A stretch of DNA of 53,707 bases from a virus (taxonomy: Duplodnaviria; Heunggongvirae; Uroviricota; Caudoviricetes), in the IMG/VR virus record IMGVR_UViG_3300031999_007842, positions 1 to 53,707 of that record; one strand, given 5' to 3'. Both the position numbers and the translations under genes were made by a program. Positions within the stretch are counted from its first letter, which is position 1. Each line of letters begins with the position of its first letter. Below are positions 35,043 to 40,250 of this stretch, in pieces. Under the pieces are notes generated by a model. That model was not told where the DNA came from and ran no database searches. It saw only the letters and a program-made list of their open reading frames with translations.

Positions 35043-36482
35043 TTACATCCTCCCTATTTCTCTTAGTCTATTACCTATTTGTTTCTTTCTCTCCTTGTCC
35101 TCAGGTAATCCAGGACCTCTCTTTCTTTCAACTATCTCCCTCATCAAAGCTTCTAAATCAAATGTTGAAGAGGAAGTTATTGGGTTAGCCTTAACAGCTA
35201 ACATGAGAGCATCAACGAAGTCATCATTACGTTTAGAGTCATATACATAATCAAGCATCTGCCCAATCAATCTCTGCTGAGTGAGTGGATCAAACTGTAA
35301 CCTATGTTGCTCAACTAGCATCCGAAGATTAGAGATCATTGTGGCCTTTTCTCCCTTAAATGCAATTGGAGCAACTGGAAGACCTTCAGCAGATAACCGA
35401 AGATTCTCTCCCTTATCAGTTGAGTCAGTATAGATAGTGATAACATTATAGCTTAGACAAGTAGCTTTGATCTTCTTATGTACCTCTTCAAAGTTCTGTG
35501 CCAAGAATGCTTCTGAATAGAGTATTTTCCACTGTTCTCCAAGCTTCTTAACTATGATCAAGACTGTAGGTGCTGGATAGTAACCCCAGTCAACTCCAGC
35601 ATAAACCTCTCCAATCTCTTCCTTAGGCTCTTCATCGATCTCGGGTTTGGGCTTTACTTGACATTCCTTGAGATCTTCCAATCGAAAGACTTTCCCTTCT
35701 CTCTTGTAAGGTAGACCTTGGATCTCTACACAATATTCATTAGCTGGCAACATACGTTTGAGAAGTTCTACTTGATCGTGAGGTAGGAACGATTCTGCGT
35801 TCCAGTTAAAGAACTTCCAATCTGGATAAGGATACTCTATTTGATGTTCCCATTTGTTTTCTATCCAGGAGAATCCTTCCGAAGGCGTTGATGAAAAGAT
35901 CTGTCTAGCAAATGGTGAAGGTGCTGTCATGGGTAATGCTGAATAGATAATATCTTCATCTACCTCAGCAGCCTCATCTATGATTAAGAGATCTGGGTGA
36001 TGTCCTCTAATCGACTTCTCTGAAGCTGGCAACGGTCTAATCCAAGAACCATCCTTGAAGACTATCTCTCGTTGTGTAGGCTCCTTGCCCAGATGCTTCT
36101 GTAAGAAAGGGGAATTATTAATGAAGTCCATAACGTAAGTAAAGCAGATCTTGGCTTGATCTAATGATCCAGCTAGGATTACTACTTTGAAAGGTCTGTT
36201 CTCTGAGATTGACATAACTAGAACATACCACAAAGCAACAACAGCCAGAGCTAAAGTCTTTCCTATTCCTCGCCCAGCGACGATTACGATGTTCTTGCAG
36301 GTCAAGCCTTGCACTTCGAGGAAGAATTCTTTTTGGAAGGGTCTAGGTTCTAAGTTAGTAACATCCTTGAAGAAGAGACTGAGATCCTTTCTCCACAGGA
36401 TAACCTTCATTAGAAGATCAGTCAGATGGAATCCTTTAAAGGAAGGACTATTAGGAATACCGGAACTATTTAGAACTGCCAC
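35043..36482 (-). CDS. terL: Terminase large subunit
   Basis: Walker A AGRGIGKT, Walker B LLIIDEAA, STP motif, nuclease GVDWG and DDFVDAL. Confidence 0.92.
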   Translation of the reverse strand: MAVLNSSGIPNSPSFKGFHLTDLLMKVILWRKDLSLFFKDVTNLEPRPFQKEFFLEVQGLTCKNIVIVAGRGIGKTLALAVVALWYVLVMSISENRPFKVVILAGSLDQAKICFTYVMDFINNSPFLQKHLGKEPTQREIVFKDGSWIRPLPASEKSIRGHHPDLLIIDEAAEVDEDIIYSALPMTAPSPFARQIFSSTPSEGFSWIENKWEHQIEYPYPDWKFFNWNAESFLPHDQVELLKRMLPANEYCVEIQGLPYKREGKVFRLEDLKECQVKPKPEIDEEPKEEIGEVYAGVDWGYYPAPTVLIIVKKLGEQWKILYSEAFLAQNFEEVHKKIKATCLSYNVITIYTDSTDKGENLRLSAEGLPVAPIAFKGEKATMISNLRMLVEQHRLQFDPLTQQRLIGQMLDYVYDSKRNDDFVDALMLAVKANPITSSSTFDLEALMREIVERKRGPGLPEDKERKKQIGNRLREIGRM

Positions 36483-37266: not shown

Positions 37267-37503
37267 ATGCCAGGAACTCCAAGACAAACATTCAGAATAA
37301 GTGACTCTGTGTGGGTAGCTTTCCAGAAGAAGTGTGCTGCTAAGGGATATACGGCTTCTGATGTATTGAGAGCATTCATCATGGAGATAGTCAAAGGAAC
37401 TATAAGTCCCGACTCTGTACATCCATCTAGGGCCAAAAGAGGAGAAACCTTGGTCAATGATGACATGATACTCGACTGGCTCAAGACCAATTCCCATAAG
37501 TAG
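37267..37503 (+). CDS. Ribbon-helix-helix (CopG/Arc-like) regulator
   Basis: RQTFRISDSVWVAFQKKCAAKGYTASDVLRAFI; GGTGA SD; first gene of the divergent region. Confidence 0.75.
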   Translation: MPGTPRQTFRISDSVWVAFQKKCAAKGYTASDVLRAFIMEIVKGTISPDSVHPSRAKRGETLVNDDMILDWLKTNSHK

Positions 37504-37717: not shown

Positions 37718-38089
37718 ATGCCATATGTCTATGACAACGTAAACGGACAATACTATGATGAAATGTGCCGAAGGTTGAACCGAGAGCATAACCTAGTGAT
37801 TCATGCTAGAACTAAAGAGATAATTGTCGGTTGCACTAGCGATGTGAAACTGAAAGTTCAACATACAAAACATCTGGGCGGTTTCCCAACAGTAGCCTAC
37901 CACCGTTCAACCAATAGTGTGCAAGCAAACGGTAAATTCATAGTTCAACCGAGAAGTTCACCTGAAGGTGTAAGCCCAATGGCAACCGAGTGGTTGAACT
38001 ATAAGTTAAAGGGCGAGTTAGTCCTAAAGGCTACCTCACAATACAAGACCGTATGGAACACAAAAGGACAACGGAGAAGTAAAGCATAA
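37718..38089 (+). CDS. Hypothetical protein carrying five of the repeat motifs
   Basis: AGGAGG SD upstream; 123 aa with no recognisable domain. Confidence 0.4.
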   Translation: MPYVYDNVNGQYYDEMCRRLNREHNLVIHARTKEIIVGCTSDVKLKVQHTKHLGGFPTVAYHRSTNSVQANGKFIVQPRSSPEGVSPMATEWLNYKLKGELVLKATSQYKTVWNTKGQRRSKA

Positions 38090-38369
38090 GGTGAACTGAC
38101 TATGAAACGACAAAACAAACAAGACTTTAAACTGATAGTAAAAGTCTTGATTCAAACAGAAGGACACCCAACAGTTAAACGAGTAATTCCACTATCGGCG
38201 GTAACTCTCAGAATACCACTAGAGTAAATAAGAAATTGAACCAGCACTTTAAGAGCTGAGTAAACGAGCAGTTGAACCAGAAAGCAGGCGAGGTTCAACC
38301 AATGGTTCAACGGGCAACCTAGAAAGTTGAACCAACAGTTAGACCGATGAGATAACTTATCGGTTGAAC
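37773..38369. repeat. Array of ten palindromic GTT(G/C)AAC sites (iteron/operator-like)
   Basis: Exact copies start at 37774, 37856, 37905, 37943, 37993, 38271, 38293, 38305, 38326, 38363; several extend to GGTT(G/C)AACC. Confidence 0.85.
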
Positions 38370-38444
38370 TAAGAAGGAAACTCAAAATTACACTATATGG
38401 ATAACGTTCCGTTCCTAGTCAGAATGTAAGTGGAGGTGAAAGCT

Positions 38445-38657
38445 ATGAGGTATGAGATAAGTTGCCCAAAATGTAGATGTGGAATAGTGCAGACCTACAA
38501 GAAAGTGAACCTAGTGCAGACAATGGTGATAACCCAATGTATGAATAGAAAGTGCAACTACCGAGTAGCACACCTGATTCCAACAGATATGATACGCAAC
38601 GAAGAACCCACAATTGCAACGAAGCTAGACTACTATGGTTGTGTGATAGCAACATAG
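38445..38657 (+). CDS. Small Zn-ribbon protein
   Basis: CPKCRC..CMNRKC; GGAGGTGA SD at 38432-38439. Confidence 0.6.
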   Translation: MRYEISCPKCRCGIVQTYKKVNLVQTMVITQCMNRKCNYRVAHLIPTDMIRNEEPTIATKLDYYGCVIAT

Positions 38658-38719
38658 ATGACCACAACCTACCACCACGGAATAACACTTATAAGTCAGC
38701 ATGTGGTAAGGATAGATAA

Positions 38720-39745
38720 CCGAATAAAGCATGTCATGACGGTAGCAAGAGGTTAGGGTAGGTGGCAAGTGATTAAGTTCACTCACCTATACCACCCATC
38801 ACAGTCATAACGAATATGACAAGCAAGACAACATAGCAAGAGTATTTGACTCTACTATGAAGTCAGAAGGAGTAGCAATACTCCTTTCCACTTACCAATA
38901 TCACAACATCACAAATCCTAGTAACATCAGCGTATGTTACGCAGTGCCGTGAGTCTTACGGACTTATGGCAGTGCGAGAGTCATAAGGGAATGAAGCCTT
39001 ATAAGTTCCCTTTTGGCGATGAAGCCTATAGGATTTAGGAGACCGTAATTGGAGAGAGGTCTCTCTAGCCTATGAACCAATTGAACTCTACGTCGTAGAG
39101 CTAGATTAAGATGATGCCTAGGTCTCCAAAAGATAAGGTCGTATCAGACCTAAGTAAACCTAGGATATTCATCGGGTGAGGTGAGAAGCAACTCTCATGG
39201 TCTGTTGACCTCAACGGCAAAAGGACGCAAGTCTGGGGAGAAATCCCAACCCATGAGGTGAACCGTAAGAATTCCCTCATATGGTAGAGTGCTGCAGTCT
39301 AAGCAAGGTAGCACCTACACGATATACCAGCCATGAGATAAATCCTTCTCGACTAAGTCTATAGGTGAAACAGCATAAATGTGCCTCGACATAAGGATTA
39401 GGGGTCTACGACTACCGCACACAAATTGCTCCTGCTGAACGACAGTGCTGAGGGAAACCTCAGAGGCTTACTAAAGCGGGAGACAACGTGTACACGAATA
39501 CATCGAGCCATATTAGATGGCGATGGGGTTCAGTATCACGACACATTGTTCTCTATTCCAGACCCGAAAACAAATGTGAACAGACAACCACGTCCCCTTA
39601 GAGGGAATGAAGGATTAGACCAATGTGCCCTTTTTTCTAAAGCCATCACAGGCAACTTGTCTGAGAGTCCTAGACAAGCCTCGTTAACTAAGCACTCAAT
39701 AACGAGTGGTGTGATCAATGTAAGGGTTGAGGTTGTGATGGAGGC
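38720..39745 (+). ncRNA. Candidate large structured ncRNA (~0.9-1.0 kb), family unassigned
   Basis: No ORF of 60 aa or more across 38689-39425; about 20 helices found by eye, several GNRA loops, nested long-range pairings; TATA-like CTTATAAG at 38688-38695; boundaries approximate. Confidence 0.65.
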
Positions 39746-39776
39746 ATGATGATTCTCAAGTGAAAGGAGATAGGAT

Positions 39777-39960: not shown

Positions 39961-40080
39961 ATGGAACAAGTAGCAGAGATCACAATCGACTCAGCACAGA
40001 TCATTATCTACCGTGACGCTAATGGTCGCATAGTTCTCGGTGGACACGGATGGATAGAGTATTATGAGGCAGAGGCGTAA
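39961..40080 (+). CDS. 39-aa hypothetical protein
   Basis: Perfect GGAGGTGA SD; MEQVAEITIDSAQIIIYRDANGRIVLGG. Confidence 0.5.
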   Translation: MEQVAEITIDSAQIIIYRDANGRIVLGGHGWIEYYEAEA

Positions 40081-40081
40081 G

Positions 40082-40250
40082 CCTACCACGTAACACGACT
40101 GAAAGCCCTAGAAGTTTTACCTAATGTTACCCATAGTCTTAGGACGAGGGAACGATAGGTTGTGGTAGGAGGCAACATCCTAGTAGCAAACGAGAAGGCT
40201 TCGATACATGGAAGAGGCAAGAGGTTCTCCTTTCCTCTTGTTCCCTTCCT
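40082..40250 (+). ncRNA. Candidate structured cis-element (possible pseudoknot plus hairpin)
   Basis: Helices 40082-89/40162-69, 40090-95/40125-30, 40218-24/40234-40. Confidence 0.35.

What the first reader, a model, noticed from the sequence alone, without database searches (positions are those of the whole stretch)
38688..39745. ~1-kb ORF-poor, densely helical region: candidate new large ncRNA in an archaeal virus
Seen in sequence: the genome is otherwise gene-dense with overlapping ORFs, but 38658-39776 has no credible ORF and is tiled with helices. Examples: AAGGAGTA-gcaa-TACTCCTT (38867-86); GTAACAT/ATGTTAC (38921-40); CTTATGGC/GTCATAAG (38963-87); AAATCCTA/TAGGATTT closing a multiloop (38913-20/39029-36); GGAGACC/GGTCTCC closing another (39038-44/39121-27) with inner AATTGG/CCAATT and CTCTAC/GTAGAG; GGAC-gcaa-GTCT (39223-34); GGGA-gaaa-TCCC (39236-47); TCTCATGG/CCATGAGA (39193-200/39331-38); AATCCTT/AAGGATT (39341-47/39393-99); CTCCTGCT/AGCGGGAG (39429-36/39475-82) enclosing CTGAGG-gaaa-CCTCAG; CACATT/AATGTG (39542-78), whose loop GACCC can pair with GGGTT at 39526-30 (pseudoknot). 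TGTGATGG (39734-41) can pair with CCATCACA at 39643 or at 38796, and the latter would close the whole molecule. A TATA-like CTTATAAG lies at 38688-95 and a T6 run at 39631-36. G-U pairs and GNRA loops favour a + strand RNA. Established: phage-associated GOLLD and ROOL RNAs are of similar size and ornateness and are described from bacteria and their phages. Inference: this may be an archaeal-virus counterpart or a new class.
Basis: partly seen in the sequence, partly recalled or inferred. Interest (0 to 1): 0.9.

Follow-up and report, generated by a model that had tools for sequence, protein, structure and literature searches.

The report
Large structured RNA in archaeal viruses
A roughly 0.9-kb stretch of this archaeal tailed-virus genome is a non-coding RNA gene whose many-helix fold is conserved in at least nine related virus lineages, matches no described RNA family, and is the first large ornate RNA I could find for a virus of archaea.

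Summary
The finding holds. Window about 38722-39636 (+) is a conserved, highly structured, non-coding RNA.

- **Folding:** it folds far better than dinucleotide shuffles (z -6.5; coding controls -0.95 and +1.1).
- **Homologues:** they lie at the same position, upstream of the Arc-repressor/terminase divergent region, in at least 9 virus lineages that are 48-79% identical.
- **Covariation:** in covariance-model alignments, 92-98% of cells pair, against 38-47% for slid partners. 39/45 and 28/45 pairs show compensatory double changes.
- **Not coding:** substitutions show no codon periodicity and most indels break frame.
- **Strand:** 95 G.U cells against 15 A.C cells point to the + strand.
- **Ends:** a conserved BRE/TATA-like motif (38679-96) precedes it. 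A helix plus T6 run (39631-36) ends it.
- **Motifs:** it has two kink-turn-like motifs with invariant GA/AUGA.
- **Known families:** no Rfam 15 family matches, even at E<=10.
several were wrong partners, and I give the corrected pairings.

Function is unknown. My best guess is an early, independently transcribed, trans-acting RNA that is probably bound by L7Ae. A giant cis-acting leader and an origin transcript remain rivals.

The parts
38445..38657 (+). Small four-cysteine zinc-ribbon protein gene (70 aa) directly upstream. It is the RNA's most constant neighbour.
   Evidence: Homologues lie directly upstream of the RNA in L002, L006, L011, L014, L018, L023 and L025 (blastp E 1e-7 to 5e-21). 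A comparable zinc-ribbon ORF sits inside the locus in L003 (alignment). The AF2 model has pLDDT 90 but no significant PDB match.
38679..38696 (+). BRE/TATA-like motif GGAATAACACTTATAAGT. Inferred promoter of the RNA.
   Evidence: Conserved as GGAATAAnnyTTATAAGT in the window, L002, L011 and L014 and also in L023 and L025. It is the only exact copy in the window. It lies 26-60 nt upstream of the first conserved hairpin. The TSS is not mapped, so this is an inference.
38722..39636 (+). The RNA itself, about 915 nt. The 5' end is inferred from the TATA position and the 3' end from the T-run.
   Evidence: z -6.5 against shuffles. nhmmer and CM homologues in at least 9 lineages. Covariation. No Rfam match.
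38759..38789 (+). P1 hairpin: UAGGUG/CACCUA with inner AGUGA/UCACU.
   Evidence: Read from the alignments. GGUG/CACC changes to AUGAG/CUCAU in L011, AGAGU/ACUCU in L014 and AAGAAUG/CAUUCUU in L023. Read by eye, not scored by a tool.
38804..38820 (+). P2 hairpin GUCAU/AUGAC. It carries lineage-specific insertions in its loop.
   Evidence: Pairs (columns 159-163 with 190-202; CG changes to UA in 2 rows).
38827..38864 (+). P3 long hairpin: GAC/GUC, CAUAG/CUAUG, AGAGU/ACUCU.
   Evidence: 76% of cells pair, against 34-38% for slid partners. 6 of 13 pairs have double changes, and 0 of 500 shuffles reach this, on a rough MAFFT alignment.
38867..38886 (+). P4 GNRA-capped hairpin AAGGAGUA-GCAA-UACUCCUU.
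   Evidence: Helix 1 of A10: 95.7% paired, 5 of 6 pairs with double changes.
38887..38920 (+). Conserved unpaired linker containing ACUUACCAAUAUCAC.
   Evidence: Conserved with 0-3 changes in L002 (two copies), L011 and L014. No conserved partner was found.
38921..38975 (+). P5 (38921-27/38934-40) and P6 (38941-54/38962-75) hairpins.
   Evidence: Helices 2 and 3 of A10: 100% and 97.6% paired, with 4 of 7 and 8 of 13 pairs showing double changes.
38976..39026 (+). Kink-turn-like junction 1. Strand AGAG (38977-80) faces GGC-GAU-GA-AGC (39015-25), around hairpin P7/P8 whose loop UGAAGCCUUAUAAG is conserved.
   Evidence: The A-GA and RAUGAAGC strands are unchanged in all 12 rows, and the C-stem covaries. 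Identification as a K-turn is by sequence pattern only.
39038..39064 (+). P9 hairpin GGAGACC/GGUCUCU with conserved 13-nt loop GUAAUUGGAGAGA.
Evidence: Helix 7 of A10: 100% paired, 4 of 7 pairs with double changes.
39086..39100 (+). P10 hairpin CUCUAC/GUAGAG.
   Evidence: The homologous hairpins differ in sequence: CCCUAC/GUAGGG in L011, CCACAC/GUGUGG in L006, CCACGU/ACGUGG in L026 and CCAC/GUGG in L003 (independent folds).
39193..39338 (+). Lineage-variable multi-hairpin domain closed by UCUCAUGG/CCAUGAGA. In the window it holds the GCAA (39223-34) and GAAA (39236-47) hairpins.
   Evidence: Independent MFE folds of 10 lineages put a closing helix at the same place in 9 of them, all but L003, where the arms UCACACAAUU/AAUUGUGUGA are complementary by eye. 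The arms covary: CAUGG/CCAUG, CAAC/GUUG, CAUAGU/ACUAUG, CAACCA/UGGUUG.
39340..39541 (+). Conserved core of the 3' half. Contains hairpin 39383-87/39401-05, helix 39430-36/39475-81 with GAAA hairpin 39448-63, hairpin 39507-11/39517-21, and invariant unpaired blocks such as GCGACGACUAA and GGGGUUCAG.
   Evidence: Helices 1-4 of A8: 78-100% paired, 17 of 23 pairs with double changes. Conserved blocks are listed.
39542..39627 (+). 3' terminal domain. Contains helices 39542-48/39621-27 and 39552-59/39612-19, kink-turn-like motif 2 (A-GA at 39560-62 facing GGG-AAU-GA-A at 39603-11), and inner hairpin 39575-78/39589-92.
   Evidence: Helices 5-8 of A8: all 22 pairs show double changes, 77-97% paired. 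GA and AUGA are invariant in 10 lineages while both flanking stems covary.
39631..39636 (+). T6 run directly after the terminal helix. Inferred archaeal terminator or attenuator.
   Evidence: A T5-T7 run at the same place in all full-length homologues. Runs of T6-T7 lie near the 3' end of the RNA-like part of the syntenic gaps of L018, L029, L036 and L037; in L036 and L037 a helix directly precedes the run. An insertion in L011/L024 lies exactly behind it.
39641..39746 (+). Element X1, a separate ~100-nt structured element downstream of the RNA.
   Evidence: A second copy lies at 40079-40174 (nhmmer E 5.5e-21 and 1.8e-22; these are the only two hits in the 156-kb record). The closing helix covaries between copies and relatives.

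Best explanation
**What it is.** Window about 38722-39636 (+) is the gene for a roughly 0.9-kb non-coding RNA. It belongs to a previously undescribed family carried by a clade of 120-160-kb tailed viruses of archaea.

**Fold (shown).** The RNA forms at least 20 conserved helices in four blocks:
- a 5' hairpin series;
- a three-hairpin junction with a kink-turn-like motif;
- a lineage-variable multi-hairpin domain closed by a conserved long-range helix;
- a strongly conserved 3' half that ends in a second kink-turn-like motif, a closing helix and an oligo-U run.

**How it is made (inferred).** It is made early, from its own BRE/TATA-like promoter, as the first transcript of the rightward early region. 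Most transcripts stop at the U-run.

**How it works (hypothesis).** It acts in trans as a folded RNA. It is most likely the scaffold of a ribonucleoprotein whose two kink-turns are clamped by the host's L7Ae. Its invariant single-stranded blocks would then be presented to a still unknown partner, either a host or viral protein or another RNA.
For: **Structure above chance.** z -6.5 for the whole RNA, against -0.95 and +1.1 for coding controls.

**Homology and synteny.**
- nhmmer and CM hits on the same strand and at the same place in L002, L003, L006, L008, L011, L014, L023, L025 and their variants.
- Lineages are 48-79% identical to each other.
- The conserved gene order is Arc repressor, p123, zinc-ribbon gene, RNA, p180.

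**Covariation.**
- A8: 92.2% paired against 38-47% for slid partners, 39/45 pairs with double changes, 0/500 shuffles reach this.
- A10: 97.9% against 39-44%, 28/45 pairs.
- A1: 95.8% against 31-42%, 19/32 pairs.
- P3 and the closing helix of the variable domain are also supported.

**Non-coding.** No codon periodicity, and indels break frame.

**Strand.** 95 G.U cells against 15 A.C cells. Pairing would drop to 86.5% and 88.7% on the other strand.

**Separate unit.**
- A conserved promoter-like motif.
- A conserved helix plus T-run.
- An opposite-strand endonuclease-like ORF inserted exactly after the T-run in L011/L024.

**Kink-turns.** GA and AUGA are invariant, with 3-nt bulges and covarying flanking stems.

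**New family.** No Rfam hit at E<=10 except five sub-threshold chance-level rows. No paper was found.
Against: - There are no expression data, so the 5' end, the promoter and termination at the T-run are all inferred.
- There is no room for a promoter between the T-run and element X1 or the next gene. The downstream early genes may therefore depend on read-through, which fits a cis-acting leader.
- The promoter-like motif resembles a hairpin loop inside the RNA and is flanked by short complementary arms. The transcript may therefore start further upstream.
- In L003 a small ORF sits between the 5' hairpin and the rest.
- The kink-turn assignment rests on sequence pattern only, and L7Ae binding is untested.
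- The family is rare: 8 loci in the one metagenome motif scan, none in viral contigs or the GTDB representatives.
- More distant relatives (L018, L029, L036, L037) have structured syntenic gaps but no detectable homology.
Confidence: 0.6

Rival explanations
1. A giant structured 5' leader, or a processed part of a polycistronic early transcript. In this reading the fold acts in cis. The T-run is an attenuator, and the structure, or a protein bound to it such as the upstream zinc-ribbon protein, sets how many polymerases read through into the early genes from 39777 on.
For: - Only about 5 nt separate the T-run from element X1. No TATA-like sequence lies between the RNA and the next gene.
- Element X recurs between genes further down, as expected for one long transcript.
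- In L003 an ORF with a Shine-Dalgarno sequence lies inside the locus.
- In L008 the RNA abuts the conserved p180 gene.
Against: - 0.9 kb with at least 20 covarying helices, two kink-turns and a lineage-variable peripheral domain is far more than any known attenuator or antiterminator needs.
- The genes downstream differ between lineages while the RNA stays.
- L011/L024 tolerate a 640-nt insertion with an opposite-strand ORF between the RNA and the downstream genes.
Confidence: 0.2
2. An origin-associated transcript. The RNA is made next to the replication origin and primes or activates replication, as ColE1 RNA II or the T4 origin transcripts do.
For: - 11 of the window's 14 GTTSAACC sites cluster at 37773-38369, about 300-900 bp upstream. 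They lie partly inside a gene conserved in all relatives.
- That region also folds unusually well.
Against: - Transcription runs away from the repeat cluster.
- The conserved features are those of a compact folded RNA (GNRA loops, kink-turns, covarying long-range helices). They are not those of an RNA-DNA hybrid.
- No origin has been shown here.
- GC skew changes sign near 23 kb and again near 38 kb, so it does not point to one origin.
Confidence: 0.08
3. A catalytic RNA, such as an unrecognised self-splicing or self-cleaving element or another ribozyme, rather than a scaffold.
For: The size, the invariant unpaired blocks inside a covarying scaffold and the peripheral variable domain are typical of large ribozymes.
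Against: - No group I, group II or RNase P signal. The only hit is a 19-bit partial match to a plastid domain-5 model (gathering score 53, E 0.46) at 39178-39205, inside the variable domain.
- The flanking ORFs are complete genes, not exons of one gene.
- The element has one copy per genome and a fixed location, so it does not look mobile.
Confidence: 0.07
4. Not an RNA at all. The region would be a run of short or degenerate protein-coding ORFs, or a DNA-level structure such as a packaging or recombination site.
For: - A 107-aa ORF (39426-39749) and longer uninterrupted frames in L014 and L006 exist.
- The locus lies 1.7 kb from the small and large terminase genes.
Against: - No periodicity, frame-breaking indels, and ORFs at different places in different lineages.
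- 95 G.U cells against 15 A.C cells, including an invariant U.G pair, argue for RNA on the + strand and against duplex or single-stranded DNA.
Confidence: 0.03

Closest known systems
GOLLD RNA (Rfam family; large ornate RNA of Lactobacillales and lake metagenomes, often in prophages)
   Same: A large (over 0.8 kb), multi-domain, covarying, non-coding RNA carried by a tailed virus of a prokaryote. Its function is unknown.
   Different: - No match to the Rfam model, even at E<=10.
- The host is archaeal, not bacterial.
- It is not next to tRNA genes; the record's tRNA cluster is about 60 kb away.
- It has kink-turn-like motifs.
- Multimer formation is untested.
ROOL RNA (Rfam family; rumen and Firmicutes phage-associated large RNA that forms cage-like homo-oligomers, PMC12286853)
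   Same: Size class, ornate secondary structure, association with viruses of prokaryotes, and unknown function.
   Different: No sequence or structure match. It comes from a different domain of life. There is no evidence here for or against oligomerisation.
OLE RNA (about 600 nt, an RNP with OapA/B/C in extremophilic Firmicutes)
   Same: A large structured RNA that probably works as a protein-bound scaffold. It is always found next to a small conserved gene, here the zinc-ribbon gene.
   Different: No match to the Rfam model. It is viral rather than cellular. Its neighbours are unrelated, and no membrane-protein partner is present.
Archaeal kink-turn RNPs (box C/D and H/ACA sRNAs, RNase P RNA, SRP RNA, rRNA bound by L7Ae)
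   Same: There are two motifs with a 3-nt bulge followed by tandem G.A/A.G. They are flanked by covarying helices and have invariant GA and AUGA.
   Different: It is not a member of any of these RNA families by Rfam. There is no box C/D architecture and no guide regions. L7Ae binding is inferred, not shown.
ColE1 RNA II and phage T4 origin transcripts
   Same: A structured transcript of several hundred nucleotides made beside a putative origin with repeated protein-binding sites.
   Different: The fold is far more elaborate and covarying. It is transcribed away from the repeats. There is no evidence of hybrid formation.

Membership tests
GOLLD / ROOL / OLE / HEARO (Rfam large-RNA families) | A match to the family's covariance model at or near its gathering score. 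| tested here: not met
   cmscan of the whole window at gathering thresholds gave 0 hits. The region at E<=10 gave none of these families. Seven homologous loci at E<=5 gave 0 hits.
GOLLD | Frequent adjacency to tRNA genes in prophages. | tested here: not met
   No tRNA in the window. The six tRNAs of the record lie at 99.9-100.8 kb.
Group I / group II introns, RNase P RNA, SRP RNA | A match to the Rfam models (catalytic core, domain 5, conserved regions). For introns, also an interrupted host gene. | tested here: not met
   Only a 19.1-bit partial hit to a plastid domain-5 model (gathering score 53, E 0.46) at 39178-39205. The flanking ORFs are separate complete genes with homologues.
Large ornate structured ncRNA (descriptive class) | Over 500 nt, many conserved helices supported by compensatory changes, and no coding potential. 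| tested here: met
   About 915 nt. 122 scored pairs in A8, A10 and A1 have 92-98% pairing and 86 pairs with double changes (A1 and A10 overlap). No periodicity and frame-breaking indels.
Kink-turn motif | A canonical helix, a 3-nt bulge, tandem sheared G.A/A.G, then a non-canonical helix. The G and A are invariant. | tested here: met
   - Motif 2 is CC-A-GA-CCC facing GGG-AAU-GA-AGG. GA and AUGA are invariant in 10 lineages, and both stems covary.
- Motif 1 is A-GA-GUC facing GGC-GAU-GA-AGC in 12 rows, in a three-way junction (helices).
- This is the sequence pattern only. The sheared geometry is not testable here.
Kink-turn motif | Binding by L7Ae-family protein. | not testable with these tools
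   No RNA-protein docking or assay is available. The host is unknown.
Independent archaeal transcription unit | A BRE/TATA element about 25 nt upstream of a mapped start, and termination at an oligo-T tract. | tested here: inconclusive
   The motif GGAATAAnnyTTATAAGT is conserved in 6 lineages. The T5-T7 run is conserved in all. No transcript ends are available. The motif is also similar to an internal hairpin loop.
Tailed virus of archaea (context of the claim) | Hallmark genes whose nearest relatives are archaeal or from archaeal viruses. | tested here: met
   - The best phage-database match of TerL is Halogranum tailed virus 1 (24%).
- Named close TerL relatives come from Parvarchaeota and Jordarchaeales MAGs.
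- The nearest cellular relatives of PolB are haloarchaea, Baldrarchaeia, Aenigmarchaeota and Theionarchaea.
- A LonB-type protease is present in the structural module of the relatives; the window's own syntenic ORF was not scanned.
- MAG labels may reflect binning errors: one relative is labelled Chloroflexi.

The most novel reading that the evidence does not exclude
This would be the founding member of a new class of large ornate RNAs specific to viruses of archaea. In this reading it is an abundant early RNA that assembles, with host L7Ae at its two kink-turns and perhaps the co-conserved viral zinc-ribbon protein, into a defined particle. That particle could be a homo-oligomer, as ROOL and GOLLD are. 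It would carry out a take-over or anti-defence function, or a catalytic one, with no counterpart among known RNAs. The equally structured but unalignable ~1-kb gaps at the same locus in more distant relatives would then be fast-evolving members of the same class. That would make the RNA a hallmark of the whole virus clade.
Probability: 0.3. Interest if true: 0.92.

Novelty: new variant of a known kind. Interest (0 to 1): 0.8.

Why it matters
- **Rarity.** Structured RNAs above about 500 nt are very rare outside rRNA, RNase P and self-splicing introns. The few known ones (OLE, GOLLD, ROOL, HEARO, raiA) are all bacterial or from bacteriophages. Several of them turned out to build unprecedented RNA-only assemblies.
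- **What this adds.** This is a 0.9-kb RNA with more than 100 covariation-supported base pairs, kink-turns and a conserved genomic setting, in viruses of archaea. It extends the phenomenon to the third domain and to an L7Ae-containing host background.
- **What it offers experimentally.** It gives a well-defined target for cryo-EM and for RNA-protein work. It also provides a marker locus for an uncultivated clade of large archaeal viruses.
- **A practical lesson.** Gene-free kilobase gaps in viral metagenome contigs can be RNA genes rather than annotation failures.

Tried and rejected
- **Rfam.** The whole window, the region at E<=10 and seven homologous loci gave nothing usable.
- **blastn against the phage collection.** No match.
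- **The search for related loci with single proteins in viral contigs.** Nothing.
- **Motif scan of viral contigs.** 0 hits.
- **Motif scan of GTDB genome contigs.** 0 hits.
- **CM R1 over the MAG holding L029 and 151 genomes of its phylum.** Only one 21-bit, 70-nt hit at E 0.003, taken as chance.
- **MAFFT plus RNAalifold on the 5' leader and the P3/P4 segment.** No consensus pairs because of misalignment. P3 was then scored with a hand-given structure.
- **Naive enumeration of stacked column pairs.** It mostly returned G-run/U-run noise and was dropped.
- **Distant relatives.** nhmmer and filter-off cmsearch did not detect L018, L029, L036 or L037. blastn finds no similarity among those gaps. 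Their homology is therefore not claimed.
- **Whole-molecule closure (38796 with 39734) and a bulge-helix-bulge circularisation idea.** Not supported. The 3' arm pairs locally inside element X, with covariation.
- **'Ribosomal L21e' genes in relatives as a host marker.** They are small SH3-like proteins with weak similarity and are not informative.
- **MCM.** Absent from the record.
- **Zinc-ribbon neighbour.** Atlas look-alikes are generic zinc ribbons, and Foldseek against the PDB gives no hit with E<=0.001.
- **Complex prediction.** Not used, because no protein-protein claim is made.
Full report
**Setting.** The window is the first 53.7 kb of a 156-kb IMG/VR virus record. Structural genes run leftwards: terminase large subunit at 35043-36482 and glycosyltransferase from this window's Pfam scan, and portal and LonB-type protease by synteny with the relatives' gene tables. 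An early region runs rightwards from an Arc-like repressor at 37267.

The virus looks archaeal.
- TerL's only near-full-length match in the phage collection is Halogranum tailed virus 1 (24% identity).
- Its close metagenomic relatives that carry names come from Parvarchaeota and Jordarchaeales MAGs.
- The record's family-B DNA polymerase has archaeal nearest cellular relatives.

The host lineage is not known, and MAG labels may be binning errors.

**The observation.** The region holds only chance ORFs. The 915 nt at 38722-39636 fold with MFE -294.8 kcal/mol, against -238.7 +/- 8.6 for dinucleotide shuffles (z -6.5). Two coding stretches of the same length give z -0.95 and +1.1. 300-nt windows reach z -6.1 and -6.4 in the 5' half. 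The reverse strand folds about as well (z -6.0), so energy does not decide the strand.

**Homologues.** TerL relatives of 64-85% identity were traced to contigs. Almost all show an uncalled gap at the same place: 0.64-1.6 kb, and 2.4 kb in L011, which carries an insertion. The gap lies 2-3 kb from TerL on the opposite strand.
- blastn and nhmmer show that these gaps are homologous to the window's region over nearly its whole length.
- One exact-motif scan of JGI metagenomes added eight loci, one of them 99% identical to the window.
- Nine lineages result, 48-79% identical to each other.
- Gene order around the region is conserved: Arc repressor, a 123-aa protein, a small zinc-ribbon protein, the RNA, variable small genes, then a conserved 180-aa protein.

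**Conserved structure.**
- A MAFFT alignment of 38910-39040 gives 32 pairs that are 95.8% paired, against 31-42% when the partners are slid. 19 pairs show double changes.
- Covariance model R2 (38863-39066) aligns 13 distinct sequences: 97.9% paired against 39-44%, 28 of 45 pairs with double changes, 0 of 500 shuffles as high.
- Model R1 (39340-39639) aligns 13 distinct sequences, including the distant L008: 92.2% against 38-47%, 39 of 45 pairs with double changes.
- The long hairpin 38827-38864 is supported on a rough alignment.
- The helix that closes the variable middle domain (39193-200/39331-38) appears in independent folds of nine of the ten lineages, all but L003, where the arms are complementary by eye. 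Its arms covary.

Alignments fitted to a model lean towards that model. However, the plain MAFFT alignments give the same picture.

**Not coding, and which strand.** Variable columns are spread evenly over the three phases, and nearly all indels break frame. Open frames lie at different places in different lineages. 95 pair cells are G.U and only 15 are A.C. On the other strand pairing would fall from 92.1% to 86.5% and from 97.9% to 88.7%. One U.G pair is invariant in all 13 sequences. This is a + strand RNA.

Comparison replaces several pairings.
- GGAGACC (39038-44) pairs with 39058-64 and closes a conserved 13-nt loop. It does not pair with 39121-27.
- CACAUUG (39542-48) pairs with 39621-27, not 39573-78. 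This removes the proposed pseudoknot.
- CTTATGGC and GTCATAAG each belong to other helices.
- AAATCCTA/TAGGATTT and AATCCTT/AAGGATT are not kept in relatives.
- TGTGATGG (39734-41) pairs with 39643-50, not with 38796.

That last helix closes a separate ~100-nt element X, which lies after the T-run. Element X is repeated at 40079-40174 and covaries between copies and relatives.

**Ends.** GGAATAAnnyTTATAAGT is conserved 26-60 nt upstream of the first conserved hairpin in six lineages. It is unique in the window. It reads as an archaeal BRE/TATA element, which is established knowledge of archaeal promoters applied by inference.

All homologues end with the terminal helix followed within a few nucleotides by T5-T7. 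In L011/L024 a 640-nt insertion sits exactly behind that run and carries an opposite-strand ORF with weak HNH/endonuclease VII similarity.

Two caveats apply. No room for a promoter exists between the T-run and the next gene. The promoter motif resembles a hairpin loop inside the RNA and has short complementary flanks. The transcript's true ends therefore need mapping.

**Motifs.** Two places have the kink-turn pattern: a helix, a three-nucleotide bulge, tandem G.A/A.G, then another helix.
- A-GA-GUC facing GGC-GAU-GA-AGC, at a three-way junction (38977-83 and 39015-25).
- CC-A-GA-CCC facing GGG-AAU-GA-AGG (39558-65 and 39603-13).

GA and AUGA are invariant while the flanking stems covary. In archaea such motifs are bound by L7Ae. 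That is established for rRNA, box C/D and H/ACA sRNAs and RNase P RNA, but is only an inference here. Several hairpins carry GNRA loops. Invariant unpaired blocks are listed.

**What it is not.**
- No Rfam 15 family matches the window at gathering scores.
The best row is a 19-bit partial hit to a plastid domain-5 model.
- Seven homologous loci give nothing at E<=5.
- The RNA has a single copy in the record.
- It was not found in 151 genomes of the phylum of one MAG that carries a related virus contig.
- Literature searches found no large structured RNA reported for archaeal viruses.
- The IMG/VR-wide screen for structured RNAs reports elements averaging 67 nt (PMC10690425). Single hairpins of this RNA could be among its unnamed candidates, which I could not check.

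**Wider clade.** The syntenic gaps of more distant relatives fold with z -8.8 (L018), -5.6 (L029), -6.1 (L037) and -6.0 (L036). T6-T7 runs lie near the 3' end of their RNA-like part, and in L036 and L037 a helix directly precedes the run. L029 also keeps the leader motif, a CGACGAC block and element X. Neither the models, nhmmer nor blastn link them significantly. I regard them as probable fast-evolving counterparts, but this is not shown.

**Mechanism.**
- Shown: a conserved, + strand, non-coding, multi-domain fold.
- Inferred: its own early promoter and a terminator.
- Hypothesis: a trans-acting scaffold held by L7Ae at two kink-turns, perhaps with the co-conserved zinc-ribbon protein. That protein's model is confident but matches nothing informative.

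Rivals are a giant cis-acting leader or attenuator, an origin transcript linked to the GTTSAACC repeat cluster at 37773-38369, and an unrecognised ribozyme.

My odds are about 0.95 that it is a real structured RNA, about 0.6 that it is a separate transcription unit, and about 0.35 for the L7Ae-scaffold reading.

Noticed in passing
window 37773-38369: There is a cluster of GTTSAACC / GGTTSAAC repeats here: 11 of the 14 sites in the whole window, against 2.9 expected by chance. They lie partly inside the conserved gene 37718-38089 and partly in the intergenic 38220-38380. 300-nt windows in this region fold with z -5.8 and -4.4. This is a candidate replication origin or regulator-binding array.
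   Followed up: partly
window 39641-39746 and 40079-40174: Element X is a ~100-nt structured element with two copies in the 156-kb record. Its closing helix covaries, its loop CUGARAGYCCUAG is conserved, and its 3' arm runs into a GGAGG (Shine-Dalgarno-like). It sits between early genes and is also present in L002, L014 (twice) and L029. It may be a cis-regulatory leader. It has no Rfam match.
   Followed up: partly
L011 6050-6690 (same in L024): A 640-nt insertion lies exactly between the RNA's T-run and element X. It carries an opposite-strand 105-aa ORF with sub-threshold Endonuclease_7/HNH hits and looks like a free-standing homing endonuclease.
   Followed up: partly
L003 / L004 7495-7704: A 69-aa zinc-ribbon ORF with a strong Shine-Dalgarno sequence is inserted between the RNA's 5' hairpin and the rest of the RNA. 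In the window the comparable zinc-ribbon gene lies upstream of the promoter motif.
   Followed up: partly
window 38679-38696 and 38988-39006: The promoter-like motif GGAAUAACACUUAUAAGU and the conserved hairpin loop GGAAUGAAGCCUUAUAAGU inside the RNA are near-copies (3 mismatches). The upstream copy has short complementary flanks in several lineages. The meaning is unknown: it could be an operator palindrome or an extra RNA module.
   Followed up: partly
L008 10001-12322 and 13669-16740; also P0013, P0027, P0041, P0061: The terminase, Lon protease and DNA polymerase of several relatives are enlarged and carry LAGLIDADG hits, so inteins are common in this virus clade.
   Followed up: no
L018 6022-6963; L029 3150-4239; L036 1-1074; L037 3618-4567: The gene-free gaps at the syntenic locus of more distant relatives fold with z -5.6 to -8.8 and hold T6-T7 runs near the 3' end of the RNA-like part (directly after a helix in L036 and L037). 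They show no detectable similarity to the window's RNA or to each other.
   Followed up: partly
G000 99875-100766 and 143940-144863 (outside the window): The record carries six tRNA genes in one cluster and a family-B DNA polymerase. No MCM was found.
   Followed up: no
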